Below are positions 6,284 through 53,127 of a stretch of DNA of 64,000 bases, piece by piece. Location: the IMG/VR virus record IMGVR_UViG_3300031758_000004, positions 32,001-96,000 of that record, one strand, 5' to 3'. How positions within the stretch are numbered: position 1 is the first letter of the stretch; each line of letters begins with the position of its first letter. The notes below the pieces were generated by a model. The model made no database searches. It saw nothing but the letters and a program-made list of their open reading frames with translations, and was not told the origin of the DNA. The translations under genes were made by a program, and so were the position numbers. This DNA comes from a virus.

Positions 6284-7906
6284 ATGAGCATGATAAAAGT
6301 CACAAAAAGAAATGGTAAGAAAGAAACCGTTAATTTCAATAAGATTGTTGATCGTATAACACAACAAACTTATGGATTAGATCAAAAGTGGATAGCACCG
6401 TTTGAGATCGCACAAAAAGTTATTGAAGGTATTACACCAGATATTAAAACTTCTGTGTTAGATCAATTGGCAATGGAAACTGCGGCTTCTCTTACAACAA
6501 AACACCCAGATTACTCAGTTTTAGCAGCAAGAATCGCTATTACTTCTTTACATAAAGAAACTAAAAAGAGCTTTTCAGAAACAGTTAAAGATTTATATAA
6601 CTATGTAGATCCAATGACAGAGAAACATTCTCCAATTGTTTCTTTGGATTTTTACAACATTGTTAAAAAACACGCTGATGATTTAGATTCAGCTATTGTA
6701 CACTCAAGAGATCATAACTTTGATTACTTTGGTTACAAAACTTTAGAGAAATCTTACTTATTAAAAATTAATGGTAAAGTTGCTGAAAGACCTCAGTATA
6801 TGTATATGAGAACAGCACTTCAAATTTGGGGTGAAAACTTAGAAAAAGTAATTAAAACTTATAACGAATTATCAGAAGGTTATTATACTCACGCAACACC
6901 AACATTATTCAACTCTGGAACAGGTAGACCACAATTATCTTCTTGTTTCTTATTAGATACTGAATCAGATTCTATTGATGGTATTTTTAACACATTAAAA
7001 GAAGCTGCTCAAATCTCTAAAAACGCGGGTGGTATTGGTATCTCTTTTAACAAAGTAAGAGCTAAAGGAACTTATATTGCTGGTACAAACGGTACTTCAA
7101 ATGGTATTATTCCTTTCTTAAAAATCTATAATGAGACAGCGAGAGCGGTAGACCAAGGTGGTGGTAAACGTAAAGGATCAATTGCTATTTATATGGAACC
7201 ATGGCACGCTGATATTATGGACTTCTTAGATTTAAGAAAGAACCAAGGTAAAGATGAAATTAGAGCTCGTGACCTTTTCTTAGCAATGTGGATGAACGAC
7301 TTGTTTATGGAAAGAGTTGAGTTAGATGCTGATTGGTCATTAATGTGTCCTCACGAATGTACTGGATTGAATGAAACTTATGGTGAAGAATTTAACAAAC
7401 TTTATACTTCTTATGAAGCGGCTGGAAAAGCTAAAAGAGTTGTTAAAGCAAGAGAAGTTTGGAATAAAATATTAGAATCTCAAATTGAAACTGGTACACC
7501 ATACTTATTATACAAAGATTCAATCAATGAGAAATCAAATCAATCAAATATTGGAATGATACACTCATCTAATCTATGTTTAGATGGAGATACTTTAGTT
7601 AAGTGTAGAGTTGAAGGTGTAGAGAAAGAATTTGATATGGTCACAATAGATCTTATGTTTAAGAATGGTAAGAAAATAGAAGTTCTTTCTAGAGACTTAG
7701 AAACAGGAATTGATGAGTGGTGTTTGGTTGAAAACTCTGGTATAACCAATCATAATGCGGAAACTATCAAAGTAACAGATGAAAGTGGGAATTACATAAT
7801 CTGTACAGAGGATCATCAAGTTTGGACTCAAAATAGAGGATATGTTAGAGCTGGTGATTTAGAAGAAAATGATATTTTATTATTAAATGAAAAAGAACTT
7901 GTTTAA
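6284..7906 (+). CDS. nrdA: Ribonucleotide reductase class Ia alpha subunit, N-part plus 109-aa split-intein N-fragment
   Basis: ATP cone (VTKRNGKKE), THATPTLFNSGT, SSCFL, DQGGGKRKGS, ETGTPY, then SSNL|CLDGDT intein start at 7577 and block B CTEDHQV. Confidence 0.95.
   Translation: MSMIKVTKRNGKKETVNFNKIVDRITQQTYGLDQKWIAPFEIAQKVIEGITPDIKTSVLDQLAMETAASLTTKHPDYSVLAARIAITSLHKETKKSFSETVKDLYNYVDPMTEKHSPIVSLDFYNIVKKHADDLDSAIVHSRDHNFDYFGYKTLEKSYLLKINGKVAERPQYMYMRTALQIWGENLEKVIKTYNELSEGYYTHATPTLFNSGTGRPQLSSCFLLDTESDSIDGIFNTLKEAAQISKNAGGIGISFNKVRAKGTYIAGTNGTSNGIIPFLKIYNETARAVDQGGGKRKGSIAIYMEPWHADIMDFLDLRKNQGKDEIRARDLFLAMWMNDLFMERVELDADWSLMCPHECTGLNETYGEEFNKLYTSYEAAGKAKRVVKAREVWNKILESQIETGTPYLLYKDSINEKSNQSNIGMIHSSNLCLDGDTLVKCRVEGVEKEFDMVTIDLMFKNGKKIEVLSRDLETGIDEWCLVENSGITNHNAETIKVTDESGNYIICTEDHQVWTQNRGYVRAGDLEENDILLLNEKELV
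7577..7903 (+). other. Split intein N-fragment (109 aa) of NrdA
   Basis: CLDGDTLV...ICTEDHQVWTQNRGYVRAGDL, conventional IntN. Confidence 0.9.
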
Positions 7907-8786
7907 TTATGAGGATTTTATAACAGATAACATAGATAATACATCCTTTATCTATGTTTATCTGGATCCTAGAAAATCAGGAGACTATAAATATGGTGAA
8001 TATGAATTTAATCATGAACCTTTTTATGTTGGTGCTTCTAGTGGTAAAACTATACATGATCGAAAAGTTCGACATTTACAATACGCGAAAAACGATAAGG
8101 ATATAACAAATAATAATTACAAAAAGAATATAATAAAGAGTATATTATCAGATAAATTAGAACCAATTATATTGAAATATATTGATGGTATGAGTATATC
8201 AGATGCCTTTTTTAAGGAAAAAGATATGATACTAATCATTGGTAATAGATATGATAAGTCAGGACCTCTAGTTAATATATCAAAAGGAGGAGATGGTGGT
8301 GATAACTTTACTAATAATCCAAGAAAAGAGGAGATAAGAGAAAAGCATAGAAGAAATGCTTTAGGATCGAATAATAATATGTATGGTCTTCCTTTAGAAG
8401 AATATCCATCACATAAAGCAAAGTTGAGAGGAGAACATTGGAATATGGGTAGAACCGCGTCAATATCAACAAGAGAAAAGCTATCCAAACAAAGAAGTGG
8501 ATCTGGTAATAGTAGAGCTAAAAAAACTTTACTTTTTGATAAAGACTTCAATATAATTAGAGAATTTGATTATTGTTTTGATGTATCTAATTATATTAAC
8601 TCATCAAATAGGTCGGTTTCCAAGACCGCAAGTACAAATTCAAAAGAGGAAATGTATCCATATCATACAACAAAAGGTTATTATATAATCTATAAGGATG
8701 ATTGGGAAAATAAATTTAAGAATAAAGAAAATGAAATTAGAGAATATCTAAAGACATTTAAGAAAAATAAAAATCAATTTTCATAA
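7887..8786 (+). mobile_element. Free-standing GIY-YIG-type homing endonuclease with NUMOD3-like DNA-binding segments
   Basis: FIYVYLDPRK...EPFYVGAS...R..RH, E(KDMI), LVNISKGGDGG, then REKLSKQRSGSGNSRAK. Confidence 0.8.
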
Positions 8787-8803
8787 AAAATAAAAAAAAT
8801 ATT

Positions 8804-8899
8804 ATGATCAAAATCGAAAAAGTAAAAAATAGACCAGTTTATGACATTACTGTGAATAAAAATCACAACTTTTATGCTAATAATATATTAGTACATAAC
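8804..8899 (+). other. Split intein C-fragment (32 aa) of NrdA
   Basis: Blocks F and G ending His-Asn. The +1 residue is the Cys of the NLCxE active-site motif. Confidence 0.9.
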
Positions 8900-10165
8900 T
8901 GTGCTGAAATAGTTGAAGCGACAGGCGTTACTAAAACGCAAAAAGCTATTTTAGAAAATAAAGAGTTATTAGAGAAATTAGGGTTAGGTGAATTCTGGGG
9001 TCAAGAAGAAGTAAATGAAACAGCAGTTTGTAACTTAGCTTCTTTAGCACTTCCTAAGTTTATCAATAAGAATAAAACTTATAATTTTAATAAACTTTAT
9101 GATATTGCTTATGATGCGATTGTTAACTTAAATAATGTTATTGATGTTAACTTTTATCCATCACCATCAGCTAAATTTTCTAACTTATGTCATAGACCAG
9201 TTGGTTTAGGTGTTCAAGGATTAGCAGATGTTTTCTTTCAATTAGGATTACCATATGAATCTGAAGAGGCTAAACAATTAAATAAAGATATTTTTGAAAC
9301 TATCTATTACGCTTCAATTAAAGCTTCTTGTGATTTAGCTAAAGTACAAGGCACTTACGCAACTTATGAAGGTTCACCTATTTCACAAGGTAAATTCCAA
9401 TTTGATTTATGGGGAACTAAACCTAGTAAAAGATGGGATTGGGATAAATTAAGAGAAGAAGTTAAGAAGTATGGTGTTAGAAACTCTTTAACAACTTGTA
9501 TCATGCCAACAGCATCAACAGCTTCTATCTTAGGTAATGAAGCATCTTGTGAAGCTCAAACTTCAAATATGTACACAAGAAGTGTTCTTTCAGGAACTTT
9601 CATTATGGTAAATAAATATTTAGTTAAAGAATTAGTTAAGTTAGGATTATGGAATGAAAATTTAAGAAAGAAAATTATTGCTGAGAATGGTTCGGTTCAA
9701 AATGTACCTGAAGTACCAACTAACTTGAAAGAAATCTTTAAAACTGTTTATGAGATTAAACAAAGAGATGTTATCGAGATGGCTGCTGATAGAGGAGCGT
9801 TTATTGACCAAACTCAATCAATGAATATTTTTATGGATTCTCCAAACTTTGCTAAGTTGACAGCGATGCACTTCTATGGATGGGGTAGAAGAAACTTAAT
9901 GACCAATGAAAATGGTGAAGTTATTATCCCACAAGGAGAAAATATTCAAGTTATTTACGATTCAGAAGGTAAAGCAAGATGTTATAAAGATAAGAGATAC
10001 ACATTAAAAACTGGTATTTATTATTTAAGAAATAAATCAGCGGCAGACGCAGTTAAATTCACTGTACAACAAGATACGGCTAAGAAAACTGTTGAAGAAC
10101 AAATGGCTGAAATCTCGTGTAGCTTAGATTCAGATCCTGGTGAATGCATGGCATGCGGCTCGTGA
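8804..10165 (+). CDS. nrdA: Ribonucleotide reductase alpha subunit C-part: 32-aa IntC plus catalytic extein
   Basis: MIKIEKVKNRPVYDITVNKNHNFYANNILVHN|CAEI. Then CNLASL, RPVGLGVQG, MPTASTA, DQTQSMN, LKTGIYYLR and C-terminal CSL...CMACGS. Confidence 0.95.
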   Translation: MIKIEKVKNRPVYDITVNKNHNFYANNILVHNCAEIVEATGVTKTQKAILENKELLEKLGLGEFWGQEEVNETAVCNLASLALPKFINKNKTYNFNKLYDIAYDAIVNLNNVIDVNFYPSPSAKFSNLCHRPVGLGVQGLADVFFQLGLPYESEEAKQLNKDIFETIYYASIKASCDLAKVQGTYATYEGSPISQGKFQFDLWGTKPSKRWDWDKLREEVKKYGVRNSLTTCIMPTASTASILGNEASCEAQTSNMYTRSVLSGTFIMVNKYLVKELVKLGLWNENLRKKIIAENGSVQNVPEVPTNLKEIFKTVYEIKQRDVIEMAADRGAFIDQTQSMNIFMDSPNFAKLTAMHFYGWGRRNLMTNENGEVIIPQGENIQVIYDSEGKARCYKDKRYTLKTGIYYLRNKSAADAVKFTVQQDTAKKTVEEQMAEISCSLDSDPGECMACGS

Positions 10166-13182: not shown

Positions 13183-13945
13183 ATTTCCATATATTTTCTA
13201 AATTTATTCTAGAGGTTATTTCAATAACTTTATCTCCTTTTTTGAGTGTGTATTTATGTAATCCTAAGAATTTATTTATTATACTATCAACTTTATATTT
13301 TTCATCATCATCTAAATCATTATTAAATATTTGAATTAGATTATCTATTTCATCATAAGTTAAAAAGTCTTTGTTACCAACAAAATAAACAAAGTTATAA
13401 TTATATTCATTATACTTTTCAGCACCCGGTTCATAAGATTTATCTATTAGAAATTGAGTTATTGAGTTTTCAACGCCTAATGATGGTAATGTAAATTTAT
13501 ATCCATCAATTAAAAACTCTTTTAATTCATTATTCCAATTTTTATTTAGATGTTTAAAATTAAAATAGTTAAAATTTTTTGATTCAAAATCAACAACGTG
13601 ATCTTCACCAAATTCATCAAAGTAGAAAATTTTAATCTTTTTATTCTTTGTAAATTTTACTATTTCAAAAAATAAGAAAATAACATCAATACTTTTTATA
13701 TACTCAAATGTATAACTATCTGGTATAATAATATTCTTCTTAACGATCTTCTTAACTTTTCTAAGAACTACACTTAAATCATCTATTACAAAGCCCATCT
13801 CATAGTCTTTTATATCTTTATCATTTGCTTTTTTGATAAAGACTTTAAAGTCATTATTATAAAAATAACCTTGTGATGGTAAGATACTTAAATCTATTTC
13901 TTTCTTTTTGGAAAAGATATTCTTTATAAAATCAATTATTCTCAT
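13181..13945 (-). CDS. T4 gp26-like baseplate hub protein
   Basis: LSILPSQGYFY and SIDVIFLFFEI motifs. The probable start is ATG at 13945. Confidence 0.6.
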   Translation of the reverse strand: MRIIDFIKNIFSKKKEIDLSILPSQGYFYNNDFKVFIKKANDKDIKDYEMGFVIDDLSVVLRKVKKIVKKNIIIPDSYTFEYIKSIDVIFLFFEIVKFTKNKKIKIFYFDEFGEDHVVDFESKNFNYFNFKHLNKNWNNELKEFLIDGYKFTLPSLGVENSITQFLIDKSYEPGAEKYNEYNYNFVYFVGNKDFLTYDEIDNLIQIFNNDLDDDEKYKVDSIINKFLGLHKYTLKKGDKVIEITSRINLENIWK

Positions 13946-13996
13946 AAAATATATATATTTTTTTAGAGAGCTCATGTCAAGTTTATATATACAACT

Positions 13997-20514: not shown

Positions 20515-21213
20515 TTAAACTTCCCTTTCGAACCACCAATTGAAGTAAATATAATTATCACCTACAAGGTTGTAAGTTTCATCACCATGTCTTACTATGA
20601 TTTTATCAGGGTGTGATCTTACAACCTCTATTTCTAAACCTTTATCCATGATTAGTTGTTTTCCAGTTTCAATTGAATAACAAATAATTTCATCATTTAT
20701 AAGTTTATATGTTCCTGGTTCTGGTTTTAACCACTCTTTGATAGTTTTAATTATCAATCCCTTTATTTTAATAACCCATTCTTTTGCTTGGTATAAATCA
20801 TAGTCTTTAAAAACTTCTGATTCTAGTTCAGCATTTGGACTAAAAATATTTTCAATAACCCCCCAATATTCTTTTTCACCAATTATAAAAGTTAAATAAA
20901 CATTATAATAAATATTATGAGATTTTAAAATTCTAAGTATTTTCATACTTTTTATATCTTGATCTTCAAGTGCTAATTTACCTCTTAGTTGAGCATAAGC
21001 ATTTGAACCTGATAATTTAAACATAATATCATTTATTCTAGCCATTGCTTGTCTAATAGCATCTTGGTTTTTATCAAACGCATTTAAAGATAATTTTGGA
21101 TCATCAACACCTGATATAGACCCAGCTGATGTCTCAGCACCAAATCTTTGAAGATTGAATTCGGTAAAACTTTCATTAAATTTTTCAAATTTTTTTATTA
21201 TTCTATTAGACAT
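20515..21213 (-). CDS. Hypothetical protein with capsid-targeting-like N-terminus
   Basis: 232 aa, starts MSNRIIKKFEKFNES. Confidence 0.6.
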   Translation of the reverse strand: MSNRIIKKFEKFNESFTEFNLQRFGAETSAGSISGVDDPKLSLNAFDKNQDAIRQAMARINDIMFKLSGSNAYAQLRGKLALEDQDIKSMKILRILKSHNIYYNVYLTFIIGEKEYWGVIENIFSPNAELESEVFKDYDLYQAKEWVIKIKGLIIKTIKEWLKPEPGTYKLINDEIICYSIETGKQLIMDKGLEIEVVRSHPDKIIVRHGDETYNLVGDNYIYFNWWFEREV

Positions 21214-22102
21214 TATCTTCTATTTTATTTTTTATATCATCTTTATAAGATATTCTTATTAGTTTGATATTATTAGAATTACAATAATTTGATTTTATCA
21301 AATCTCTTCTCTTTTGTATTTTAAAACTTTCTTGACCACCATAAAAATCAATAGGTTTGAAGTGTTGTTCACCATCGTATTCTATACAAATATTTAATTT
21401 AGGTAAATAAAAATCGAATCTTAATTCTTTTTTATAAAAACATTCTTTAAATGAGTGTTGACTTATATATTCTATATTATTAAATTCTAATATTCTTCTA
21501 ATCTCTCTTTCTCCTTTAGATTCTTGACATTTTGGACAACCAACTCCACTTAAATGTGAATGTGGCATTTGTTTGAATTTTCCATGTTTCAAACATATTA
21601 TATCAACTTTCTTATTCATGTTGATATACTCAACTAATTTATAGTCATATTTTTTCAAATGTATATTATTTGACCTTTCTATAAAAGTTTCAGTTGTTAT
21701 TTTTTTACATTTTGGACAATCTTGTCCTTTTAGATGATTATTAGGTGTTTGTTCAAATTCACCATGTTTTCTACATATTATTTTAACCTTTATCTTACTA
21801 CCTTTATAATCCACTTTTGAATAATCATACTTATCACCATTTAATAAGATAAAGTCATTAATTATATCTTTATTATTCTTTTTATTAAAATGTTTATCTG
21901 AGCATTCCGGACAATCTTGACCTCTTAAATGATTATTAGGTGTTTGTTCAAAAATACCATGAAATTTACATATTATTTTAACTTTAACTTTGTTATTAAC
22001 ATAAGATACTAATGAATAATCATACTCATCACCTCTTTTTGTGATACAATCTTCAATAAATGATTTAGTATTTTTCTTTTTAGTATTTCTTTGAATTGAC
22101 AT
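21206..22102 (-). mobile_element. Free-standing homing endonuclease (repeated YDYS/CxxHG..CPxC modules plus DUF559-like nuclease)
   Basis: Three F...G..YDY..V.Y...KV.IIC..HG.F.Q.P..HL.G..CP.C repeats, then LRFDFYLP..NICIEYDGEQH. Confidence 0.85.
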
Positions 22103-22103
22103 A

Positions 22104-22119
22104 TTTAATATATATTAAA
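22104..22119. promoter_or_regulatory. Palindromic bidirectional phage promoter
   Basis: Perfect 16-bp palindrome TTTAATATATATTAAA between divergent genes. It gives TTAATATATA on both strands. Confidence 0.6.
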
Positions 22120-22136
22120 ATTTAATTATTGAAAAT

Positions 22137-22454
22137 ATGAGAATTAAGAGATTTTTTGAAAATGAACAAGTTGAACTATCTAACGAAAGAGTAGATGAGA
22201 TTATCAATGAAGTTGAAGACTTTTTAGATGTTTTAAATGAAAAAAATAAATATTTAGAGTCATTAATAATTGAATTAAATAACTATAAAAATCTATCAGA
22301 TAAAGGAAATGATCAAATAGATGATTCTATAGCTTCTTTAGAGCTCGTTAAAAAAGATTTAGATAATACATTTGATAAGCTAGACACAACTTTAAGTAAC
22401 TTAAATTCATATAAAGATGAAGGTAGAAAATACCTTTATATAGAAAAGAAATAA
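22137..22454 (+). CDS. Small coiled-coil protein with capsid-targeting-like N-terminus
   Basis: MRIKRFFENE followed by a heptad-rich helix. Confidence 0.65.
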   Translation: MRIKRFFENEQVELSNERVDEIINEVEDFLDVLNEKNKYLESLIIELNNYKNLSDKGNDQIDDSIASLELVKKDLDNTFDKLDTTLSNLNSYKDEGRKYLYIEKK

Positions 22455-22457
22455 ATT

Positions 22458-22616
22458 ATGTTTGTAGCTCCCGATCCTAATACAATTGTACTTGGTGGTC
22501 CTGGTTCCAGGTTAAATCCATATAGTCATTGGTTCCAACCATTTCAAATCACTCGTCATAAAATGAGAAAGAAAAAAATTGAAAAAATATATGGAATTAG
22601 TAGGAAAGAAAAGTAA
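22458..22616 (+). CDS. Small ORF (52 aa), not in the ORF track
   Basis: ATG 3 nt after the previous stop. MFVAPDPNTIVLGG...KMRKKKIEKIYGISRKEK*. Fills the intergenic gap. Confidence 0.55.
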   Translation: MFVAPDPNTIVLGGPGSRLNPYSHWFQPFQITRHKMRKKKIEKIYGISRKEK

Positions 22617-22848
22617 TTTAGAACCTGGTTATGTTTTTGCTCCGTATATAATACAAACATCTAATCCTATAATTGATGGTAGTTTAAAACAGAATATTAG
22701 AAGGGTGAAAATAAATAAAGTTTATAACCTTAATAGAGAAATAAAAGATAGTCAATTTTCACCAAAAATGGCAGTTAAATCAAGATATTCTGTTACAAGT
22801 GTAAATAGTAATTATTTTGGAAAGATTGAAATAAAAAACCCACTTTAA
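22591..22848 (+). CDS. Miniature homologue of the T4 gp23-type major capsid protein C-terminus
   Basis: EPGYVFAPYI and FSPKMAVKSRY...YFGKIEI match my recollection of gp23-family C-terminal motifs. Probable ATG start at 22591. Confidence 0.6.
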   Translation: MELVGKKSNLEPGYVFAPYIIQTSNPIIDGSLKQNIRRVKINKVYNLNREIKDSQFSPKMAVKSRYSVTSVNSNYFGKIEIKNPL

Positions 22849-22858
22849 AAGTGGGTTT
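22836..22858. terminator. Bidirectional intrinsic terminator
   Basis: AAACCCACTT-TAA-AAGTGGGTTT between convergent genes. Confidence 0.75.
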
Positions 22859-22864
22859 AATTAT

Positions 22865-23227
22865 CTATATAAAGTAATATAAGACTAATTTAACAAAATT
22901 TCTATCATCTCTTAAAAGTCTATTAATGTCGATAGAGATTTTTTCTGGATGAAATCCTCTAACTTCGGTTGACTCGATATCTTCTAGATGTAAACCTTCA
23001 CCTAATGTTAAGTACTCATTAACTTCAGATATTACATCTTTAATATCAATAGAGTTAAAGACTCTAATTCCATCAGAGTTTTTTGTTATCTCAATAATAA
23101 GGTAGTTATCTTTGTTATCAACCTTTGTTTTGAAATCAAATTTTTCTAATTTATATAAAATTCTTTCTAAGTTAGACTTAACTGGATCTAATTCATAACT
23201 CTCATTAAACCTTCTCAAATATTTCAT
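22865..23227 (-). CDS. Hypothetical protein with capsid-targeting-like N-terminus
   Basis: 120 aa, starts MKYLRRFNES. Confidence 0.6.
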   Translation of the reverse strand: MKYLRRFNESYELDPVKSNLERILYKLEKFDFKTKVDNKDNYLIIEITKNSDGIRVFNSIDIKDVISEVNEYLTLGEGLHLEDIESTEVRGFHPEKISIDINRLLRDDRNFVKLVLYYFI

Positions 23228-23814
23228 TATTTAGTATATTTTAATTTGTAAAGTGTTTTATAAAGAAGAACTACAATATCATCAATAATACTATGTAAAT
23301 GAGTATCTTCCTCATTAATACATTTTCTCTCAACTTTAATAAAAGTAGCTAATTCATTGAAATATTCAATAGTATCTTTAGAAGCGGTTTCTTTTGTATC
23401 AATTACATCATATTCTTCAATAATACCATATTGACCTTGATATGCCTCTATCGTATCATCAATTAATTCCAAAACATCTTCATAATAATCACCAAGCGCT
23501 GTATGTTTAGCATGTGAACCCATATCACCTTTAACTTGTAAGTGATAAATATGTGCCATTTCTCTACTTTCAAATAATTTAGAGAAGAATTTACCCGGAT
23601 TTGAACCTTCGCCTAAGAATTGTTTTGGTTCTTCTTCACTTTGTGCCTGAGCTTGAGCCTGTGATTGTGCCTGAGATTGACTTTGAGCACCTTGACCTTG
23701 TAACATTTTTACAAGTTCATCTTTAGATAATTCATCATAATTTGTTGGAAGATTTGCGTCTTCGTTGAATTTTCTAAGTTTTGATTTCTTTTGTATATCA
23801 GAAAACCTTTTCAT
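23227..23814 (-). CDS. Ferritin-like four-helix protein (DUF5856-like) with Gln/Ala linker
   Basis: AHIYHLQ...SHAKHTALGDYYE....LID..IEAYQGQYG pattern and a QSQSQAQSQAQAQAQS linker. Confidence 0.6.
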   Translation of the reverse strand: MKRFSDIQKKSKLRKFNEDANLPTNYDELSKDELVKMLQGQGAQSQSQAQSQAQAQAQSEEEPKQFLGEGSNPGKFFSKLFESREMAHIYHLQVKGDMGSHAKHTALGDYYEDVLELIDDTIEAYQGQYGIIEEYDVIDTKETASKDTIEYFNELATFIKVERKCINEEDTHLHSIIDDIVVLLYKTLYKLKYTK

Positions 23815-23901
23815 AATAATATTTTAATTTTTAATTATATATTAAAAAGATAAAACTGAAAATTTCATTTTAATATATAACCTATAAAAATATTTTTTAC
23901 T

Positions 23902-24078
23902 ATGAAATACATCAATAAGTATATTAAAATGTTTGAAAACGAGGTTTTAGAAAGACCGGTTGTTAAAGAACAAACAAAAACAGCTACTGAAAAAGATGTT
24001 GTTGATAGATTAGAAAGAATCTATAAAGAACTTTCAAAAGAAGAAAAAAATGAAATCGATTCTTATTTCCAAAAATAA
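23902..24078 (+). CDS. Small ORF (58 aa) with capsid-targeting-like N-terminus, not in the ORF track
   Basis: MKYINKYIKMFENE...SYFQK*. TTAATATATA at 23870-23879. Confidence 0.7.
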   Translation: MKYINKYIKMFENEVLERPVVKEQTKTATEKDVVDRLERIYKELSKEEKNEIDSYFQK

Positions 24079-24086
24079 TTAAAATT

Positions 24087-27000
24087 ATGAAATTAAAATT
24101 AAAAGACTTTTCACAATTTTTTGAAGAAGCTGATATTAAAAAGAACATCGGTCTTCCGAAAGATTTTACATCAAGAGCTGAAGAAGAAGCAACTAAAAAT
24201 TTAGGTATTAATATAGATCAACCAACTCGAAGTAGATTGATGGAATATGCTGATAAAGCTGATCAACTAATGGGTAGATCTATTCCAAAAAATCAGATTG
24301 AAGAGAAATATACTCAATTGGAAAACTTAGCAAAAAAAGTTATTGAGACTGAATATAAAGCAGTATTTGAGTTTCTACCAATTGAATTAGATATTAGACT
24401 AATCAGACCAGGTGAATCTGTTATGGGTGAAATGCCTGAATTGGGAAAAAAACAAGAACAACCTGGTGTTAGACCTGATTATAAAGAAGAAGAATCTCAA
24501 TCCGATGAAGAACAATCTGATGAAACTCAGTCACAATCTCAATCACAAGAAGACGACGATTTCTTTAGTTTTTTTGGAGGTGATGACGAAGAACAAGAAT
24601 CTAATGAAGAGGAAGATTTAGAAAATATTATTGAGCCAGAAGTAACTAATAAAGATGTCGCTATGGCTGTTGATAAAACACAAATCTTAAATATGATTAC
24701 TCAAGGTGCTGGTAAAGCAACCAAAGATATAATCAAGTTTTCTGAATTAATTTCCTCTGAATTAAAAAACATTTTAGGTGATAATTCTGGTGAGATTTTA
24801 AAATTATGGGGTCTTATATCAGATGAAGCTGATAAAGGTGACTGGACAACTCCTATACACATTAAATCAAATCTATTTAAAGATAATCCAGGTGGAATTG
24901 CAGGGGCTGTTAGAGTTTTGTGGGAAAGTAAAAACATATCATATGAATTAGAATTATTAAAAGAAAATTCTAATTATAGTAAAATTGTTGTTAAAGCATT
25001 TGGAGTTGATTTTCCTATGTTGATACATGAGGCTGTAAAAGGTATCTATATGATTTTACAATCACCAGCTATTAAAAAGAATAAGGAATTAGCTGAGGAA
25101 ATTAAAATGGCTACTTCTTCTTATATGGACGAAGCTTCTGATTTTAGATATGGACCATTAGCTCAAAAGATGTTTAGAGATTTTATTTATCATTGTAAAG
25201 ACGCTGATAGATATCCAAATATGGTTGAGAGAGTTTTATACTTTTTAGCAATGGATATTGATAATAATGGTAAATTTACGGATGAACAATTTTTGGAAAT
25301 AACAAAGAGTTTATTTTCTTCTTTTAATAAAGTCGTTGAAGGTGGTAAAATAGAGTTTACTATTAATGAAGAAAGATTTGTTGAATCGATTGCTAGAACT
25401 AAAATCGAAGAATTGATTAAAGAAGAAGTTGATTTTGAAGAAGAAATGGAAAGAATGGAAAGAGAAAAAGATCTTAAATCTGCTCTTCCTTCCGAAAACG
25501 AGCCAAAACAACCAGAGACAACGGTTGATGATGAAGAGGATGAAATTGAAAAATTAAAAAGAGCTACAGCTCAAAGAGAACAAGATTATAGTAATATGTC
25601 ACCAAGAGAAATCCAAGAGTTAATTGATGATGCTTTAGATAGTGGTGATTATGAAAAAGTTAAGTTTCTTTCTCAATTCTTAAAAGAAGGTAAAGAAATC
25701 TATTTAAGAGAAATAGAGATGTTGAATGAAAGAATTAAAATCAGAGAGAAATCAAAATTGATTAAATCCGAATTTATCTTAAATGAGAATTTAGATAAGG
25801 CTAAAAAGTTTATGAAAGATACTTATATCTTAACAACTGCGGCTAATAAAATTGGTTTAGAAAACTTATTTGATCAATCAACTTCTGATAAAATGAAACT
25901 AGAGTTAGGAAGAGGTGAGAAGAAAATACTTACACCTAATGACTTTACTTTAGTTGATTCTGAGAAAAGAAAAGAGTTATCAGGTGTGATGAGAACTATT
26001 CCGGTAAATGATGATAAATTAAGAGAGTTAATTACAACCCCTGAATTTAAATCAATTCGTGAAATAAAAACAACGGTTGATGGTAAAGAATATCAGTTGG
26101 ATAGAGATAATATTGGTTGGTTATTTAATTTTGTTTATTTCTATTACGCTGAGAATATATCATTAGAAGATTTAACAAACTTATATCAACAATTAATTGA
26201 GAATAAAGATATTCTTAATTTATTAGATAAACCTTTTGATTTAAACTTTATTGATATTAAAATACCAAATAATAATGAGAAATTAATTGACTCATTGAAT
26301 AAATTACCTGCTCAAAGAGCTTACAAGAGATTAGAGTCTGACTTACCACCACACCTAAAAAGAGATTTAAAAGATTCTCCTAATTATATCAAGGATCAAT
26401 TCAGAGATTTAGCCTCTTCTTTTAGTGAATTAGATCCAGAATTATATAAAGGTTTCTGGGGTCAGATGATGATGGATGATAGAGAAGGTTCGAAAACATT
26501 TGGTAAGGTTGTTTTTAGAAGTCCTATATCAAGATTTAAGACAATTATTGAGTTAATACAAAATGCGAATGGTTATCTTAACTCTTGTGGTAATGGTTCA
26601 TTTGATGAATTCTATAAAAAATTACAAGCTTGTAATATGAAATGGGGAGCATCTGGAGCAAAAGAAGTTTTCTTTGAAAAAGGAATTTTAATTTTAGAAG
26701 TTGCTTCTTATGAGGCTAATAGAATGCTAAATGGTCATACAACACACTGTATTGTTACAAGCCGTGGACAATGGGATGGTTATGTAAATAGCACAAATGG
26801 ACGATTAACTTATGAAAATAAACAATATTATATTTATAACTTTAATTTACCATCAACAAATAATATGTGGACAATTGGTGTAACAATTCAACCAAATTCA
26901 AGAAACTATATTAGAGCAGCTCATAATAAAACAGATGGTAATGTTGCTTCAAGACTAGTTGATATATTAAGAGACTGGGGTAAAGAATACGATATTAATG

Positions 27001-27890
27001 CTGATGCTGAAAAGAAAGCTAAAGAATTAGGAGCATCTGATTCTGATATTTCTAGTTATGGTCCAGTATTCGCTTTAATGAGACCACTTTCAAGTGAGGA
27101 ATTAGAAAGAAGAAGAAAATCAAGAGAAGCTGAAATTGAAATTACTAAACCTGGTAAAACAATTAAAGACTTAGAGGAATATGTTAAGAAATGGGGAGCT
27201 AGTATCAACCACCTTGATTATTCAACTAAGAAATGTGCTCTTGATTGGGCTGTCCAAGAAGATGATTTAGAGAAAGCTAAGTATATACTTGAAATGGGTG
27301 CTGATCCAAATGTTAGACAAATTAATGTTAATGGTCAGATGGTTCCTGATAAGAAAACAGCAGTTATTAATGGTGCTAAATCATTAGATATGATTAAGTT
27401 ATTGATTTCACACCAATCAATTGTAACACCAGTAGTTTATGAAACTATCAGTGGTGATATAAATGCGGTTGAGTTCCTATTGGATAATAATGTTGATCCT
27501 AATTTTGAAAATTCACTACCGGTTAGAAGATCTTGTAGAGGTTCATTTGATGACGCTAATTACAAAAGAACTGGTGACAGAGGTGAGAGTTACTTAACAA
27601 CATTTGAATTACTTGTTAAGAGAAATGTTAAGCTAACAGATTCAAGAGGAAGAATGATGGTTCTTAAATGGGCTTCTGAATACGCGAGATTGGATATTTT
27701 AGAATATTGTGCTAATATGGGAATTGAGTTTGGATGGATTCAAGCTTATACTTGGGCATATAACTCAAGAAAATTAAATAATAATGATCTTAAAGAATTA
27801 GCAGACTTCATAATACCTTATATTGAGAAATATGAACCTGAACAATGGAAAGAAACTTCTAAAGATAAAAAATGGCATTTAAGTTTATGA
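24087..27890 (+). CDS. Large multidomain protein with C-terminal ankyrin repeats, probable internal virion protein
   Basis: 1267 aa, starts MKLKLKDFSQFFEE. Ankyrin-like ALDWAVQEDDLEKAKYILEMGADPN, AVEFLLDNNVDPN and LKWASEYARLDILEYC. Confidence 0.65.
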   Translation: MKLKLKDFSQFFEEADIKKNIGLPKDFTSRAEEEATKNLGINIDQPTRSRLMEYADKADQLMGRSIPKNQIEEKYTQLENLAKKVIETEYKAVFEFLPIELDIRLIRPGESVMGEMPELGKKQEQPGVRPDYKEEESQSDEEQSDETQSQSQSQEDDDFFSFFGGDDEEQESNEEEDLENIIEPEVTNKDVAMAVDKTQILNMITQGAGKATKDIIKFSELISSELKNILGDNSGEILKLWGLISDEADKGDWTTPIHIKSNLFKDNPGGIAGAVRVLWESKNISYELELLKENSNYSKIVVKAFGVDFPMLIHEAVKGIYMILQSPAIKKNKELAEEIKMATSSYMDEASDFRYGPLAQKMFRDFIYHCKDADRYPNMVERVLYFLAMDIDNNGKFTDEQFLEITKSLFSSFNKVVEGGKIEFTINEERFVESIARTKIEELIKEEVDFEEEMERMEREKDLKSALPSENEPKQPETTVDDEEDEIEKLKRATAQREQDYSNMSPREIQELIDDALDSGDYEKVKFLSQFLKEGKEIYLREIEMLNERIKIREKSKLIKSEFILNENLDKAKKFMKDTYILTTAANKIGLENLFDQSTSDKMKLELGRGEKKILTPNDFTLVDSEKRKELSGVMRTIPVNDDKLRELITTPEFKSIREIKTTVDGKEYQLDRDNIGWLFNFVYFYYAENISLEDLTNLYQQLIENKDILNLLDKPFDLNFIDIKIPNNNEKLIDSLNKLPAQRAYKRLESDLPPHLKRDLKDSPNYIKDQFRDLASSFSELDPELYKGFWGQMMMDDREGSKTFGKVVFRSPISRFKTIIELIQNANGYLNSCGNGSFDEFYKKLQACNMKWGASGAKEVFFEKGILILEVASYEANRMLNGHTTHCIVTSRGQWDGYVNSTNGRLTYENKQYYIYNFNLPSTNNMWTIGVTIQPNSRNYIRAAHNKTDGNVASRLVDILRDWGKEYDINADAEKKAKELGASDSDISSYGPVFALMRPLSSEELERRRKSREAEIEITKPGKTIKDLEEYVKKWGASINHLDYSTKKCALDWAVQEDDLEKAKYILEMGADPNVRQINVNGQMVPDKKTAVINGAKSLDMIKLLISHQSIVTPVVYETISGDINAVEFLLDNNVDPNFENSLPVRRSCRGSFDDANYKRTGDRGESYLTTFELLVKRNVKLTDSRGRMMVLKWASEYARLDILEYCANMGIEFGWIQAYTWAYNSRKLNNNDLKELADFIIPYIEKYEPEQWKETSKDKKWHLSL

Positions 27891-29932: not shown

Positions 29933-29981
29933 GTGAATATATATCAAAAAATATGTCTTCTATTTTTTAATATATATTACT

Positions 29982-30472: not shown

Positions 30473-30844
30473 ATGAACCGTCCAGAAGTAAGAATAGTTC
30501 AAAATCAAGAGATTGAAACTAATCAAAATCCTAACATTGATAATTGGGAAGCTGAACAATTATTAAGAAAGTATGGATATAAACCGGAAAATTCCAATAC
30601 TTTTCAACAACCTGAACAAATTGAACAACCTGGGATGACATTTGAGGAAATGATTGCTCAAGAAGAAAATAGAAGAAATCAAGAACGAATGAGAATGGAA
30701 CAACAAATGAGAGGTCCTAAACCAGTTTCATTTGATGGTAGAAATGGTTATTATTCACAAACTTCATATGGTACTGATAGTGATTCTGGATTTTCATTCA
30801 AGATTGAAGTTACTAGTGATATGAATATTCCTAAAAATTACTAA
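30473..30844 (+). CDS. Hypothetical Gln/Glu-rich protein
   Basis: 123-aa ORF. Confidence 0.6.
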   Translation: MNRPEVRIVQNQEIETNQNPNIDNWEAEQLLRKYGYKPENSNTFQQPEQIEQPGMTFEEMIAQEENRRNQERMRMEQQMRGPKPVSFDGRNGYYSQTSYGTDSDSGFSFKIEVTSDMNIPKNY

Positions 30845-31194
30845 TTTAATATCTGACTTAATTTTAATTCTCTTAATAACTGAATTAGTATAGGAGATGT
30901 TCTGAATGGAAAATAGTGATTTGGGACTTCTTCATTTAAAAACTTTTTAAAGTTTAAAATTATTGTAGTTTCTTTATAATCTGATTTTGATAAATCAAAG
31001 TGGTAAATTCCCTTTTTAAAAGACTCTTGTAGATGTGATAACGAACACAAGTCATAAAATCCGTTAATAAATCCAAACCATTTTTTCATAAGATATTCTA
31101 AATCATTATTGAATTCATATTCAGATAACTCATTTTCATTTAGTATTTTTAATACCAAATAGTTTTTATCACTTAATGTTATTTTATTATCCAT
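30841..31194 (-). CDS. Hypothetical protein with C-terminal RxxKL tag
   Basis: 117 aa, ends LLRELKLSQILN. Confidence 0.55.
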   Translation of the reverse strand: MDNKITLSDKNYLVLKILNENELSEYEFNNDLEYLMKKWFGFINGFYDLCSLSHLQESFKKGIYHFDLSKSDYKETTIILNFKKFLNEEVPNHYFPFRTSPILIQLLRELKLSQILN

Positions 31195-49151: not shown

Positions 49152-50190
49152 GTCTATACACGGTGATGCTTATGACTACTCATTAGTTAATTATATTAAC
49201 AATATAACAAAAATAGAGATAATATGTAAGATTCATGGCGTTTTTGAACAAACACCACATCATCATAAACGAGGTGGTGGTTGTGGTAAATGTACAAAGG
49301 GTGCGCCATCTTTATCAAAGGATGATTTTATCAAAAAGTCGGTTAGTAAACATGGTAATTTATATGATTACTCATTGGTGAATTATATTAATAATAGGAC
49401 TAAAGTCGAGATAATTTGTACTAAACACGGAATTTTTAACCAAACTCCACAATCACACTTAAATGGTAGTGGATGCTCAATGTGTAATGTGAAATGTATA
49501 AAAAATGATGAATTAATAAAAAGATTTAATGATAAACATAATGGTTCTTATACTTATCTCCTCTGTGAAGAAAGATATAAATTGTCGGACTTTATAGATA
49601 TCAAGTGTGAAATTCATGGTGTGTTTACACAAAGAATATCAAACCATCTTGTATCTGGTTGCCAGAAATGTGGTGGATTTGTATATGATAATGATGATTT
49701 TGTAGATAAATCGATTAAAGTACATGGTGATAAATATGATTATAGTTTATCAGTATATAAAAACTTCAAAACTGATGTTAATATAATATGTAAAAAACAC
49801 GGAATTTTTAAACAAAAACCTTATTTACATACATCTGGATCAGGTTGTGCTAAATGTAATGAGTCAAAAGGTGAAAAGATTATATCTTGGTTTTTGACTA
49901 AAAAAGGTATAAAATATGAAACACAAAAAACTTTTGATGATTGTGTTTATAAGAAAAAATTAAGATTTGACTTCTATTTACCCGAATATAATACTTGTAT
50001 AGAATATAATGGTATTCAACATTATGGAGAAGTTAAAGCTTTTGGAGGACATTCTTATTTATTAGATATTAAAACTAAGGATAATATAAAAGTTAATTAT
50101 TGTAATAATATGAATATAAATTTAATAGTGATAAAATATACAGATTTTGAAAATATATCTAACATAATTAGTAATTATATATCATTATAA
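49126..50190 (+). mobile_element. Free-standing homing endonuclease, paralogue of 21206-22102
   Basis: Four YDYS/CxxHG repeats, then LRFDFYLPEYNTCIEYNGIQHY. Confidence 0.85.
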
Positions 50191-50721
50191 TTCATTTAAT
50201 GAAAATGTTTCGTTATCCGCTCCAAATCTATTTTTCATTAGTTTAGCAACTCCCTTATCAATCATAAAAGCCAAATCAGCAATATACATACTTCCACTCC
50301 CTCCCTTTAAATTTTGAGATGGTGTTACTTCTAATGAAGTGTATGTTGGTGCAGTAAAAATTACTTTTAATCCACATTCTACACACTCACTTCTTAACTT
50401 TTCAACTATTTGATTTAATTGTATTGATTTATATACATCACTTTTTTGTAAATGTGGTAAATCGTTGTAATCAATCAATATGTATTTAAAGTTTATTTTT
50501 GATAAATCTTCCGAATCATTTAGAATAGAATCTAATCTAATATCTCTTATCTTTTGTTTAAGACTACCATTAAAAGAAAAAGATGGATCTATTTCTCTTA
50601 AATCAATATATGATAATTTAGAAATAAATTCATTTTTTAAATTTTTATCATTTGAAGTATATCCAATTGTAGTAAAGTTAGATTGATCTACTAAACTATA
50701 TAAATACTCAATTGATTTCAT
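50185..50721 (-). CDS. Degenerate DnaB/RecA-fold protein (inactive ATPase) with inserted RDxRL tag
   Basis: YILIDY, VEKLRS, YIADLAFMI and KLMKNRFG align to this window's own DnaB C-domain. The Walker A position reads TSNDKN. Confidence 0.65.
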   Translation of the reverse strand: MKSIEYLYSLVDQSNFTTIGYTSNDKNLKNEFISKLSYIDLREIDPSFSFNGSLKQKIRDIRLDSILNDSEDLSKINFKYILIDYNDLPHLQKSDVYKSIQLNQIVEKLRSECVECGLKVIFTAPTYTSLEVTPSQNLKGGSGSMYIADLAFMIDKGVAKLMKNRFGADNETFSLNEL

Positions 50722-51866: not shown

Positions 51867-53127
51867 TTTTATTCTCTAAGTTTAGAACTTTTCTAACTTT
51901 ACCTTTAGTATCATTAACAATTTCTTTTCTAACCGATAATTCCAATAATAATTTCTCACTATCATCAATAATATCAGGCATTTTAAACCCCTCTTTTTCT
52001 AATAGAGAAATTGCTATAATTGGATCATCAGAAAACTCATTAAATAAAGTTTTAATTATATTTAATTGTTCTGATAGAGTGTAACCATTGAGTGAGTTTA
52101 TTGCTCTTGTGTTCTCAACAAGTCTTTTAAGTAAATCTAAATCTTCTTTACTCGGTTGACAATCTATATAATCTTCTGTGTTAAAATTATAAGACTTCCA
52201 TATTTTTTTAATCTCTTCATTTTCATAAACATTTCTTATATAGAATAAGAAGTTCTTACAAGTTTGAATAGATGTTATATCAGAGTCACTCCAATATTCA
52301 AATCCTTTATCAACCATGTTTATAACATCAAATAATACTTTTTCTTCTTTAACATATTTAACTGGTATCAATTTATATAACTTATCATCAGAATTAAACA
52401 TAGTTTTTATATACATCTCATCATCTAAACACCTAACTATATTAAAGTAATTACTTAACTTATCTGAGTATTTTTCAAATATTTCATAATATCTTTCTTT
52501 AAACATTCTTTTTGAAACATCTGAGAAATAGTAACTATTACTGATTACATAAGACAGGATCTTATACTCAAATTCATCTAATTCACAACCTAATTCATCA
52601 GACTTTTTAATTATTCTGATAGCAGTATGTGATGGTGTGGTTAAGTTAACTATCTTCAATTCACCGGTTTTCAAGAAATTCTCAAACTCTTTAGTCCAAT
52701 AAAATTTATCTTCATCAATTGAATAACCAACTGCTGTACAATTTATATCAAATGAGTCTATAATAAACTTTGGATCTTCGATATTTGAATCGTATTCTAT
52801 AATATTAAATATTCCGTCTTTTTCAGACGATGCGATTGAATAGAAATTTTTTGTGTAAGTACTCCAGTTTATACCAGTATAATCTTCATAAGCTTTAATA
52901 TCATCAACTTTATATCTATAAAGACTATCTCTATCAACATTAGAGAATTTATCTATTTTATTTCTAAAAATAAAAACATCAATATCATTTACAACTGCTT
53001 TTTTACCGGAAACTAATTCCCACGCAATATTAGCAATAGAACCACCAGCAATAAATCCTGTTTTTGGAATACCCCAAGTATCTTTAATTATTTGTAGAGC
53101 TGATCTACAAAGACTTTCTATATTCAT
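51853..53127 (-). CDS. Nucleotidyltransferase, CCA-adding/poly(A) polymerase-like head domain
   Basis: GFIAGGSIAN, NDIDVF (DxD), SFDINCTAVG, TAIRII. Confidence 0.65.
   Translation of the reverse strand: MNIESLCRSALQIIKDTWGIPKTGFIAGGSIANIAWELVSGKKAVVNDIDVFIFRNKIDKFSNVDRDSLYRYKVDDIKAYEDYTGINWSTYTKNFYSIASSEKDGIFNIIEYDSNIEDPKFIIDSFDINCTAVGYSIDEDKFYWTKEFENFLKTGELKIVNLTTPSHTAIRIIKKSDELGCELDEFEYKILSYVISNSYYFSDVSKRMFKERYYEIFEKYSDKLSNYFNIVRCLDDEMYIKTMFNSDDKLYKLIPVKYVKEEKVLFDVINMVDKGFEYWSDSDITSIQTCKNFLFYIRNVYENEEIKKIWKSYNFNTEDYIDCQPSKEDLDLLKRLVENTRAINSLNGYTLSEQLNIIKTLFNEFSDDPIIAISLLEKEGFKMPDIIDDSEKLLLELSVRKEIVNDTKGKVRKVLNLENKIKEI

What the first reader, a model, noticed from the sequence alone, without database searches (positions are those of the whole stretch)
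22591..22848. 85-aa mini major-capsid-protein fragment with an inserted peptide tag
EPGYVFAPYI...FSPKMAVKSRY...YFGKIEI matches the C-terminal motifs of T4 gp23-family capsid proteins as I recall them (G.xYxPYxP...FxPxxGxxTRY...xGxI). The short linker between them is replaced by a segment containing IRRVKINKVYN. The ORF is intact, has its own start and is followed by a terminator. It could be a decoy for capsid-sensing defences, a dominant-negative inhibitor of competitor assembly, or an assembly modulator.
Basis: partly seen in the sequence, partly recalled or inferred. Interest (0 to 1): 0.8.

Follow-up and report, generated by a model that had tools for sequence, protein, structure and literature searches.

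The report
Tagged capsid-fragment mini-gene, huge phage
An uncultured huge phage keeps a real, conserved 85-codon gene that copies only the capsid-protein hairpin where neighbouring capsomers touch, with a short basic helix (a peptide that many of its small proteins carry) inserted at the tip; I found no paper describing such genes, and its function is untested.

Summary
Window 22591-22848 (+) is an intact 85-aa ORF ending inside a strong hairpin. A profile of its family matches the last ~62 residues of the clade's own gp23-type major capsid protein (MCP): hhalign probability 96%, E 2e-9, with a 23-residue insertion. 24 of 53 family members hit Pfam Gp23 on their own.

It is not a broken or split capsid gene. 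Relatives carry a full 568-583-aa MCP as well as this mini-gene. The family has at least 48 clusters at 50% identity, nearly all 66-125 aa.

Aligned through T4 gp23, the two conserved motifs are the strands flanking the P loop, the inter-capsomer contact at quasi-threefold axes. The insertion sits at or just after that loop.

The inserted motif is a portable peptide: 18 copies in the 191-kb record against 0.6 expected, 14 of them at C-termini. AlphaFold folds only this helix.

Function is untested. My best guess is a capsomer-edge mimic acting in head assembly. Decoy and anti-competitor roles remain open.

This scan has noted the same gene design before on other DNA, in at least eight other huge-phage genomes. 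My paper searches found no description of it.

The parts
22591..22848 (+). The mini-gene: an 85-aa basic protein (pI about 9.9), a homologue of the last ~62 residues of the clade's gp23-type MCP with a 23-residue insertion.
22603..22650 (+). Residues 5-20 (GKKSNLEPGYVFAPYI). They correspond to MCP ...GRKNNPDQPGIIFVPYL and to T4 gp23 ...AGIYYAPYV, the ascending strand of the P-domain hairpin. G13, P18 and Y19 are nearly invariant in the family.
22672..22740 (+). Inserted segment, residues 28-50, absent from the MCP and from the 78-aa homologue in LR756501.1. It lies at or just after the P-loop position.
   Evidence: PMC9546572.
22699..22725 (+). Tag core RRVKINKVY (residues 37-45). It lies within the only element AlphaFold2 folds (helix 33-44; the 10-residue block 41-50 averages pLDDT 90). 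It matches the genome-wide motif R[RKDE]x[KR][IL]xx[ILV][FYL].
22756..22803 (+). Residues 56-71 (FSPKMAVKSRYSVTSV). They correspond to MCP FAPRMLLRSRYAVTEV and to T4 FQPVMGFKTRYGI, the descending strand of the P-domain hairpin. S64, R65 and Y66 are nearly invariant.
22813..22833 (+). Residues 75-81 (YFGKIEI), aligned to the MCP's last strand (...FMTITV).
22836..22858 (.). Perfect 10-bp hairpin between convergent genes. It encodes the conserved ...KNPL end and the stop codon. The T-run is on the minus-strand side.
22458..22616 (+). Upstream 52-aa ORF overlapping the target's start by 26 nt (the target is in its +1 frame). It ends with the same tag (MRKKKIEKIY). It is conserved in relatives and fused in frame with the target in one family member (P0019). 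Its own link to the MCP is only suggestive.
22137..22454 (+). 105-aa coiled-coil-like ORF, first gene of the same three-gene string, under very strong purifying selection (dN/dS 0.03-0.07).
22104..22119 (.). Palindrome TTTAATATATATTAAA in the short divergent gap upstream of the string. It is conserved in all relatives and may be a bidirectional promoter.

Best explanation
What it is (well supported): a real, selected small gene of a huge uncultured phage. The phage's capsid protein is about 73% identical to those of 635-642-kb metagenomic phages. The product is a free-standing copy of the MCP's P-domain beta-hairpin, that is, the two strands flanking the P loop plus the last strand. A basic amphipathic helix is inserted at the hairpin tip. 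The same peptide ends many other small proteins of this genome.

How it most likely works (inferred): the protein is unfolded on its own except for the helix. It acts by mimicry at the edge of capsomers. In T4, the P loops, the P-domain strands and a short acidic P-domain helix of three neighbouring capsomers meet at the quasi-threefold positions. The hairpin part would pair with those P-domain elements on the phage's own MCP. The basic helix would dock either on the acidic P-domain helix or on a shared hub, such as the scaffold or core, that all tag-bearing proteins use. The effect would be to modulate or time capsomer-capsomer joining while a very large head is built, or to plug into the lattice. 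It probably works together with the co-transcribed 52-aa tagged ORF and the other tagged MCP-piece mini-proteins.
For: Shown:
- Homology to MCP residues 515-576, supported by the Gp23 hits of 24 of 53 members.
- Full-length MCP and the mini-gene coexist in relatives G002 and G004.
- The family has at least 48 clusters at 50% identity. Members are intact, indels are in frame, and the motifs G-Y-x-x-x-P-Y, R-x-x-K-I and S-R-Y are nearly invariant.
- dN/dS is 0.35-0.39 at dS about 0.8.
- Through the T4 gp23 alignment, the loop between the two motifs is TPLRG, residues T457 to G461. PMC9546572 places this in the P loop at quasi-threefold axes, where the head-length mutations T457A, R460C and G461S map. 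The same paper describes P loops, a short acidic P-domain helix and basic P-domain strands as the inter-capsomer contacts.
- The 57-aa mini-protein elsewhere in the genome covers exactly that strand, the short helix and the start of the spine helix.
- AlphaFold2 folds only the helix.
- Natural circular permutants and an ORF1-ORF2 fusion exist. This fits two strands that pair with each other plus a movable helix.

Context: both flanks carry genes with a shared N-terminal leader MK..K.F.E. There are 12 in the genome against 2.7 expected, and 5 of them adjoin the target. From my knowledge of T4, this resembles the capsid-targeting leader of head-internal proteins.

Precedent: a capsid-protein homologue that redirects capsid assembly, SaPIbov5 Ccm (PMC8569155 abstract).
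Against: - No binding, expression or virion-content data exist.
- The MCP model was too poor (pLDDT 50) to check contacts in this clade, so the structural mapping rests on T4.
- The gene evolves much faster than its neighbours (60% against 88-95% identity between the same genome pair). That suits an arms-race gene at least as well as an assembly factor.
- The tag also sits on fragments that weakly resemble portal and gp32, and on proteins with no capsid link. The tag's partner therefore need not be the capsid.
- A more distant huge phage has the hairpin mini-gene without the insertion and with a different tail, so the helix is not essential to the hairpin's role.
Confidence: 0.38

Rival explanations
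1. It is an immune decoy or anti-defence mimic. The fragment reproduces a conserved capsid epitope that host abortive-infection sensors read, and it titrates or mis-directs those sensors. The tag would deliver the captured sensor to a common sink.
For: - It evolves fast relative to its neighbours.
- The same tag is carried by small ORFs that weakly resemble pieces of other classic immune triggers: portal (E 0.0025) and gp32-type SSB (E 0.026).
- The fragments are the most conserved MCP segments.
- Capsid proteins are known triggers of CapRel, Lit and PifA-type defences (my knowledge).
Against: - For the known capsid sensors, binding the capsid piece activates the toxin rather than blocking it, so an unmodified mimic would harm the phage (my knowledge).
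- The host and its defences are unknown.
- No homology to any known anti-defence protein was found.
- The gene sits among putative head-protein genes rather than in an early or anti-defence cluster.
Confidence: 0.2
2. It is an inter-phage weapon. The fragment acts as a dominant-negative capsomer-edge cap that poisons head assembly of co-infecting related phages, while the phage's own MCP has diverged enough to escape.
For: - The hairpin is the inter-capsomer contact element.
- The mini-gene evolves rapidly, while the MCP itself is highly conserved across the clade, 74-99% identity over the 120 best-listed homologues.
- Precedent: satellites use capsid homologues against helper assembly (PMC8569155).
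Against: - Because the MCP is so conserved in the clade, a fragment that poisons relatives should also poison the phage's own MCP.
- The mini-gene is only about 29% identical to the MCP segment.
- There is no evidence of strain-specific matching.
Confidence: 0.12
3. The tag is the functional part, and the protein is mainly a small basic cargo, for example packaged in the head or bound to DNA or membrane. The capsid-like strands would be only an evolutionary leftover that serves as a spacer.
For: - The tag is strongly over-represented and mostly C-terminal on unrelated proteins.
- It is the only confidently folded part.
- The protein is very basic, pI 9.9.
Against: - The capsid-derived residues (G13, Y14, P18, Y19, S64, R65, Y66, N72) are as conserved as the tag across 39-53 diverged members.
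- They are kept in a homologue that lacks this tag.
Confidence: 0.15
4. It is a non-functional relic: a piece of a capsid gene dragged along by homing-endonuclease or recombination events and still open by chance.
For: - A homing endonuclease gene lies 500 bp upstream.
- The genome is full of split genes.
- dN/dS between very close relatives is 0.66-1.09, though this rests on few substitutions.
Against: - The endonuclease is absent from all the more distant relatives, which still have the mini-gene in the same place.
- At least 48 diverged clusters keep an intact ORF of the same size with invariant motifs.
- dN/dS is 0.35-0.39 at larger distance.
Confidence: 0.04

Closest known systems
T4 gp23 major capsid protein and gp24 vertex protein (Pfam PF07068, HK97 fold; PDB 8gmo; PMC9546572)
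   Same: The mini-protein is homologous to the P-domain hairpin around the P loop (T4 residues about 447-479) and to the last strand. The signature residues (G..Y.PY, F.P....RY) are shared.
   Different: Only about 60 of more than 500 residues are present. There is no N-arm, E-loop, spine helix, A domain or insertion domain, so it cannot form a capsomer. It carries a 23-residue inserted helix at the loop, and it is predicted unfolded on its own.
SaPIbov5 Ccm, a capsid-protein homologue that redirects helper-phage capsid assembly (PMC8569155)
   Same: It is a capsid-protein-derived gene kept beside the real capsid protein, and its role is to alter lattice assembly.
   Different: The abstract describes Ccm as a homologue of the whole capsid protein, encoded by a satellite. 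The gene here is a tiny fragment encoded by the phage itself, and no effect on assembly has been shown.
Capsid accessory proteins that act at capsomer junctions (T4 Soc; external scaffold Sid of P4, PMC7552001)
   Same: These are small proteins that bind the MCP lattice between or across capsomers and set stability or size.
   Different: There is no sequence relationship. Soc and Sid are not derived from the MCP. Sid binds the A-domain apex, not the P loop (which corrected my own recollection).
T4 capsid-targeting sequence and other portable sorting peptides
   Same: A short peptide shared by many unrelated small proteins of one phage suggests a common docking partner.
   Different: The T4 signal is N-terminal and cleaved (my knowledge). 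This one is C-terminal, or internal in this protein, and it is a basic or amphipathic helix. Its partner is unknown.
Gol peptide of T4 gp23 (trigger of the Lit protease)
   Same: A short piece of the MCP has a biological activity of its own.
   Different: Gol lies in the N-terminal part of gp23 and is not a separate gene (my knowledge). The present gene copies the C-terminal hairpin.

Membership tests
Gp23-type major capsid protein (PF07068) | Profile match above the curated cut-off | tested here: not met
   This protein scores 17 bits against the 24.4-bit cut-off. Some family members do better (best E 3e-7). The homology of the segment itself is secure (hhalign 96%).
Gp23-type major capsid protein (PF07068) | Complete HK97 fold (N-arm, E-loop, spine helix, P and A domains) able to form capsomers | tested here: not met
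   It covers only MCP residues 515-576 of 583. AlphaFold2 shows one helix and no fold. A true 568-583-aa MCP exists in relatives.
Tagged core-protein-fragment mini-genes of huge phages (a class noted by this scan; I found no paper describing it) | Small free-standing ORF homologous to one short conserved segment of the phage's own MCP | tested here: met
Tagged core-protein-fragment mini-genes of huge phages (a class noted by this scan; I found no paper describing it) | Carries the short peptide shared by many other small proteins of the same genome | tested here: met
   The motif occurs 18 times against 0.6 expected, and 14 of 18 copies lie within 7 residues of a C-terminus. In this protein it is internal.
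Tagged core-protein-fragment mini-genes of huge phages (a class noted by this scan; I found no paper describing it) | Conserved under selection in related phages that also have the full gene | tested here: met
Capsid decoration or cement proteins (Soc-like) | Presence in the virion, bound at capsomer junctions | not testable with these tools
   The phage is uncultured and there is no proteome or map. Complex prediction was unreachable.
Anti-defence decoys | Binds or blocks a host sensor of capsid protein | not testable with these tools
   The host and its sensors are unknown. The PADLOC library was not searched, because it holds defence proteins rather than anti-defence proteins.

The most novel reading that the evidence does not exclude
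Huge phages run a modular 'fragment plus docking helix' system. In this reading, dozens of tiny proteins each copy one self-association element of a polymerising core protein. Here those would be the capsid N-terminus, the capsid P-domain strand with its helix, and the capsid P-loop hairpin, and possibly also portal, sheath and SSB pieces. All would carry one short helix that takes them to a common hub. The set would act as a programmable family of interface mimics. It could chaperone or time the assembly of very large virions, or it could intercept host sensors and rival phages that read those same interfaces.
Probability: 0.3. Interest if true: 0.85.

Novelty: categorically new. Interest (0 to 1): 0.66.

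Why it matters
If these mini-proteins act as interface mimics, they would be a natural set of peptide-sized modulators of capsid assembly, and possibly of portal, sheath and SSB assembly too. Two open questions would then become testable. The first is how phages with genomes of roughly 600 kb or more control the building of very large heads. The second is whether viruses use fragments of their own structural proteins against host sensors or competitors. The shared helix would also define a sorting or docking signal used by many of the proteome's small proteins. Even if the function turns out to be modest, the gene class is widespread (at least 48 sequence clusters for this member alone) and is currently annotated only as 'hypothetical'.

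Tried and rejected
- **Split or only capsid gene:** rejected. Relatives have a full MCP as well as the mini-gene.
- **Homing-endonuclease debris:** rejected. The endonuclease at 21206-22102 is missing from all distant relatives, which keep the mini-gene.
- **The tag is simply the end of the MCP spine helix:** undecided. hhalign lines the tag of the 57-aa mini-protein up with MCP ...SKQIVAKIF (probability only 21%). One relative, however, has a fuller spine helix followed by a separate tag.
- **ORF1 as a capsid fragment:** not significant (z 0.5; probability 3%).
- **Tag as a T4-type sliding-clamp-binding tail:** only a recollection. No gp45-type clamp was found in the record, the polymerase gene is itself split, and PMC2988020 gives no sequence to compare.
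- **Fold search:** not run. The model of the mini-protein has no tertiary structure and the MCP model is unreliable (pLDDT 50).
- **PDB sequence searches with the profiles:** nothing useful.
- **Complex prediction (MCP plus mini-protein):** the machine was unreachable in nine attempts (among them), so no job ran.
- **T4 late-promoter consensus:** not informative in this AT-rich DNA.
- **Megablast to the phage collection:** no match.
- **My recollection that P2 sir mutations lie in the P loop:** wrong. They lie at the A-domain apex, so I dropped that analogy.
- **Paper searches for capsid-fragment decoys or dominant-negative capsid fragments:** nothing relevant found.

Full report
**1. The object**

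Window 22591-22848 (+) is an intact ORF of 85 codons, with an alternative TTG start at 22579. The window is bases 32001-96000 of a 191,442-bp IMG/VR virus record with 28% G+C.

The ORF ends inside a perfect 10-bp hairpin at 22836-22858 (-12.5 kcal/mol; none of 200 shuffles folds as well). The hairpin holds the last four sense codons and the stop codon. That probably explains the conserved ...KNPL ending in the family. The T-run of the hairpin is on the minus-strand side, so it may chiefly terminate the convergent 120-aa gene.

**2. Is the capsid likeness real?**

Yes.
- On its own the protein hits only Pfam Gp23 and the PHROG for major head protein, both weakly (E 0.004, 17 bits, below the 24.4-bit cut-off).
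- The protein belongs to a family. Ten relatives of 81-86 aa at 51-88% identity turned up in the word-indexed search. An exhaustive phmmer search of 1.84 billion representatives found 48 clusters at E <= 0.001, nearly all 66-125 aa and none a full capsid protein.
- Scanned one by one, 24 of 53 members hit Gp23, and no other family recurs (best E 3e-7).
- Related viral contigs carry a complete 568-583-aa Gp23 protein (90-95 bits) in addition to the mini-gene.
- Against that MCP the target gives a local score of 92, versus 42 +/- 5.7 for shuffles.
- The family profile aligns to the MCP profile with 96.2% probability (E 2.1e-9). Mini residues 2-82 match MCP 515-576 of 583, with one 23-residue insertion in the mini-protein.

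My record lacks a full MCP and a T4-type portal. CheckV rates it only 73% complete. The MCP of its relatives is 73% identical to those of 635-642-kb metagenomic phages and 51% identical to that of a 735-kb one, with Lak phages at 30%. I recall those accession numbers as belonging to the 'huge phage' study of Al-Shayeb et al. 2020, but I did not check this. The head genes are most likely in the missing part of the genome.

**3. What part of the capsid protein is copied?**

phmmer aligns the clade's MCP to T4 gp23 in PDB 8gmo. MCP 524-559 lies without gaps on the T4 stretch that reads ...GIYYAPYVALTPLRGSDPKNFQPVMGFKTRYGI. With the chain offset of 56, TPLRG is T457 to G461.

PMC9546572 states several relevant points:
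- Inter-capsomer contacts are made by P loops, by a short acidic P-domain helix and by basic P-domain strands.
- The A-P linker is residues 486-502.

So the two conserved motifs of the mini-protein, GYVFAPYI and FSPK..SRYS, are the strands flanking the P loop. The final YFGKIEI matches the MCP's last strand. The insertion sits at or immediately after the P loop.

The low-confidence AlphaFold model of the clade's MCP at least agrees that 527-533 and 550-562 are strands. This mapping is by homology to T4, not by a structure of this phage's capsid.

**4. The insertion**

Its core, IRRVKINKVY, fits a motif that first-stage notes listed for this genome. I tested that motif myself. R[RKDE]x[KR][IL]xx[ILV][FYL] occurs 18 times in the ORFs of the record, against 0.6 +/- 0.7 in shuffled proteins. 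Fourteen of the 18 copies lie within seven residues of a C-terminus.

In the target's family the motif is as conserved as the capsid-like residues. R37 is present in 38 of 39 sequences, K40 in 34 of 39, I41 in 37 of 39, and I44/F45 are also dominant.

With the family alignment, AlphaFold2 folds only this part. Helix 33-44 is the sole secondary-structure element, and the 10-residue block 41-50 averages pLDDT 90. The rest is extended coil at pLDDT 55-79.

A more distant huge phage (LR756501.1) has a 78-aa homologue in which the two strands are joined directly, as in the MCP. It ends in a different tail (...LDPYGEEDW..), and the ORF just upstream of it carries that tail too. So the hairpin mini-gene is older than this insertion, and 'fragment plus shared peptide' recurs with different peptides.

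**5. Family architecture**

The alignment shows three further variants:
- Circular permutants (for example P0050, P0056, P0059) have the SRYS module first, then the GY..PY module with the tag at the C-terminus.
- Two members (P0027, P0034) carry a second tag at the end.
- One member (P0019) has the upstream ORF and the target fused in frame.

These variants fit two strands that pair with each other plus a movable helix.

**6. Selection**

Between the window and the 221-kb relative (L004), dN/dS is 0.35-0.39 at dS about 0.8. Between very close relatives it is 0.66-1.09, on few substitutions.

The same genome pair gives 0.03-0.07 for the 105-aa ORF and 0.18-0.32 for the 52-aa ORF. Protein identity is 60% for the target, against 88% and 95% for those two neighbours. 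The gene is therefore constrained at its motifs but evolves fast overall.

**7. Context**

In every relative examined the gene ends a three- or four-gene string:
- a 105-aa coiled-coil-like ORF;
- one or two short ORFs that end in the tag;
- the target, whose start overlaps the preceding stop region and lies in its +1 frame.

In one relative (L014) the string holds three mini-genes in a row: a spine-helix fragment plus tag, an FVDP..ILGG piece plus tag, and the target.

A palindrome, TTTAATATATATTAAA, lies in the roughly 33-bp divergent gap upstream. It is conserved in all relatives and may be a bidirectional promoter.

The homing endonuclease at 21206-22102 (PHROG 559, E 5e-85) is an insertion present only in the closest relatives.

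Genes on both sides of the target start with a shared leader, MK..K.F.E. There are 12 such genes in the record against 2.7 expected, and five of them adjoin the target. From my knowledge of T4, this resembles the capsid-targeting leader of head-internal proteins. That is an inference.

**8. The wider set**

The same record holds several related small ORFs.
- A 57-aa ORF matches Gp23 at 33 bits and covers the P-domain strand, the short helix and the start of the spine helix, followed by the tag.
- A 128-aa ORF is like the MCP N-terminus.
- A 238-aa ORF is like part of the MCP A domain.
- Tag-bearing ORFs give weak hits to T4 portal (E 0.0025) and to gp32 (E 0.026).

Notes from this scan describe the same design in at least eight other huge-phage genomes. 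I treat those notes as leads. They agree with what I found independently here.

**9. Mechanism**

The following points are shown:
- homology to the P-loop hairpin;
- coexistence with a full MCP;
- conservation;
- the portable motif;
- lack of a fold without a partner.

The following is inferred. The protein acts as a mimic of the capsomer edge. Its strands would pair with P-domain elements of MCP subunits. The basic helix would dock on the acidic P-domain helix or on a hub shared by all tagged proteins. The result would be to modulate capsomer joining during assembly of a very large head. I put this at about 0.38.

The rivals are as follows.

| Rival | Confidence | Main points |
|---|---|---|
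| Immune decoy | 0.2 | Fast evolution and the tagged portal-like and SSB-like pieces favour it. Known capsid sensors are activated by binding, not blocked. |
| Anti-competitor dominant-negative | 0.12 | The clade's MCP is too conserved for self/non-self discrimination. |
| Tag-driven cargo with a vestigial capsid part | 0.15 | The capsid residues are as conserved as the tag. |
| Relic | 0.04 | Conservation argues against it. |

**10. Novelty**

My paper searches found no description of capsid-fragment mini-genes. The nearest precedents are whole capsid-protein homologues that redirect assembly (Ccm, PMC8569155) and non-homologous lattice binders (Soc, Sid). The gene is not a member of the Gp23 family in any functional sense. 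It is a derived fragment with an added peptide.

**11. Limits**

- There are no expression data.
- There is no complex prediction, because the machine was unreachable.
- There is no reliable MCP model for this clade.
- The host is unknown.
- All structural placement is borrowed from T4.

Noticed in passing
window 22458-22616 (+): A 52-aa ORF overlaps the target's start by 26 nt, with the target in its +1 frame. It ends with the same tag (MRKKKIEKIY), has dN/dS 0.18-0.32, and is fused in frame with the target in family member P0019. An A-rich run in the overlap leaves frameshift or slippage coupling open. Its resemblance to MCP 503-519 is not significant.
   Followed up: partly
window 21206-22102 (-): A homing endonuclease gene (PHROG 559 E 5e-85; DUF4379 zinc fingers plus a Vsr-like end) is inserted exactly between the palindromic motif and the 232-aa gene. 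It is present in the closest relative (L044) and absent from L004 and all more distant relatives.
   Followed up: partly
window 22104-22119; also 29966-29980 and 59302-59317: The palindrome TTTAATATATATTAAA (with one mismatch allowed, 6 strand-matches against 0.34 expected) lies in short gaps between divergent genes and is conserved upstream of the 105-aa ORF in eight relatives. It may be a bidirectional promoter.
   Followed up: partly
window 20515-27890 (genes at 20515-21213(-), 22137-22454, 22865-23227(-), 23902-24078, 24087-27890): A cluster of genes shares an N-terminal leader MK..K.F.E. There are 12 in the 191-kb record against 2.7 expected, and five of them flank the target. The leader resembles the T4 capsid-targeting sequence as I recall it.
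   Followed up: partly
window 30841-31194(-), 50185-50721(-), 53124-53387(-), 55200-55814(-): Further carriers of the R-x-x-K-[IL]-x-x-[ILV]-[FYL] peptide inside the window. Three carry it at the C-terminus and one internally. The three scanned gave no Pfam or PHROG match (the internal carrier at 50185-50721 was not scanned).
   Followed up: partly
G000:C1:11209-11382 (= L001:1507-1680), outside the window: A 57-aa mini-gene matches Gp23 at 33 bits (P-domain strand, short helix, start of spine helix) and ends in the tag. It is conserved between an RNA-ligase-like 440-aa gene and a 410-aa gene in four relatives.
   Followed up: partly
G000:C1:134157-134944, outside the window: A second mini-gene string: a 128-aa ORF like the MCP N-terminus (residues 7-44, 27 bits), a 66-aa ORF ending in the tag, and an 87-aa ORF with an internal tag followed by GKKS and a weak T4-portal hit (E 0.0025).
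   Followed up: partly
G000:C1:179181-179474 (-) and 13247-13963 (-), outside the window: A 96-aa tag-bearing ORF has a weak gp32 hit (E 0.026). A 238-aa ORF resembles part of the MCP A domain; relatives have 249-258-aa versions, and one of them ends in the tag.
   Followed up: no
L029:1308-1553 (-) and L024:1302-1547 (-): 81-aa ORFs in relatives carry an internal tag. By eye their N-terminal part looks like the start of a tail-sheath protein. I ran no test on this.
   Followed up: no
L047:2501-2737 (LR756501.1, 735-kb phage): A 78-aa homologue of the target lacks the insertion and ends in ...LDPYGEEDW... The 101-aa ORF upstream carries the same tail. This looks like a different shared peptide on the same kind of mini-gene.
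   Followed up: partly
window 6284-10165: The ribonucleotide reductase large subunit is split into two ORFs (6284-7906 and 8804-10165), with a 299-aa ORF (7887-8786) between them.
   Followed up: no
G000:C1:25262-27767, outside the window: A family-B DNA polymerase N-terminal part (508 aa) is followed directly by an endonuclease-like 322-aa ORF. The polymerase appears to be split as well.
   Followed up: no
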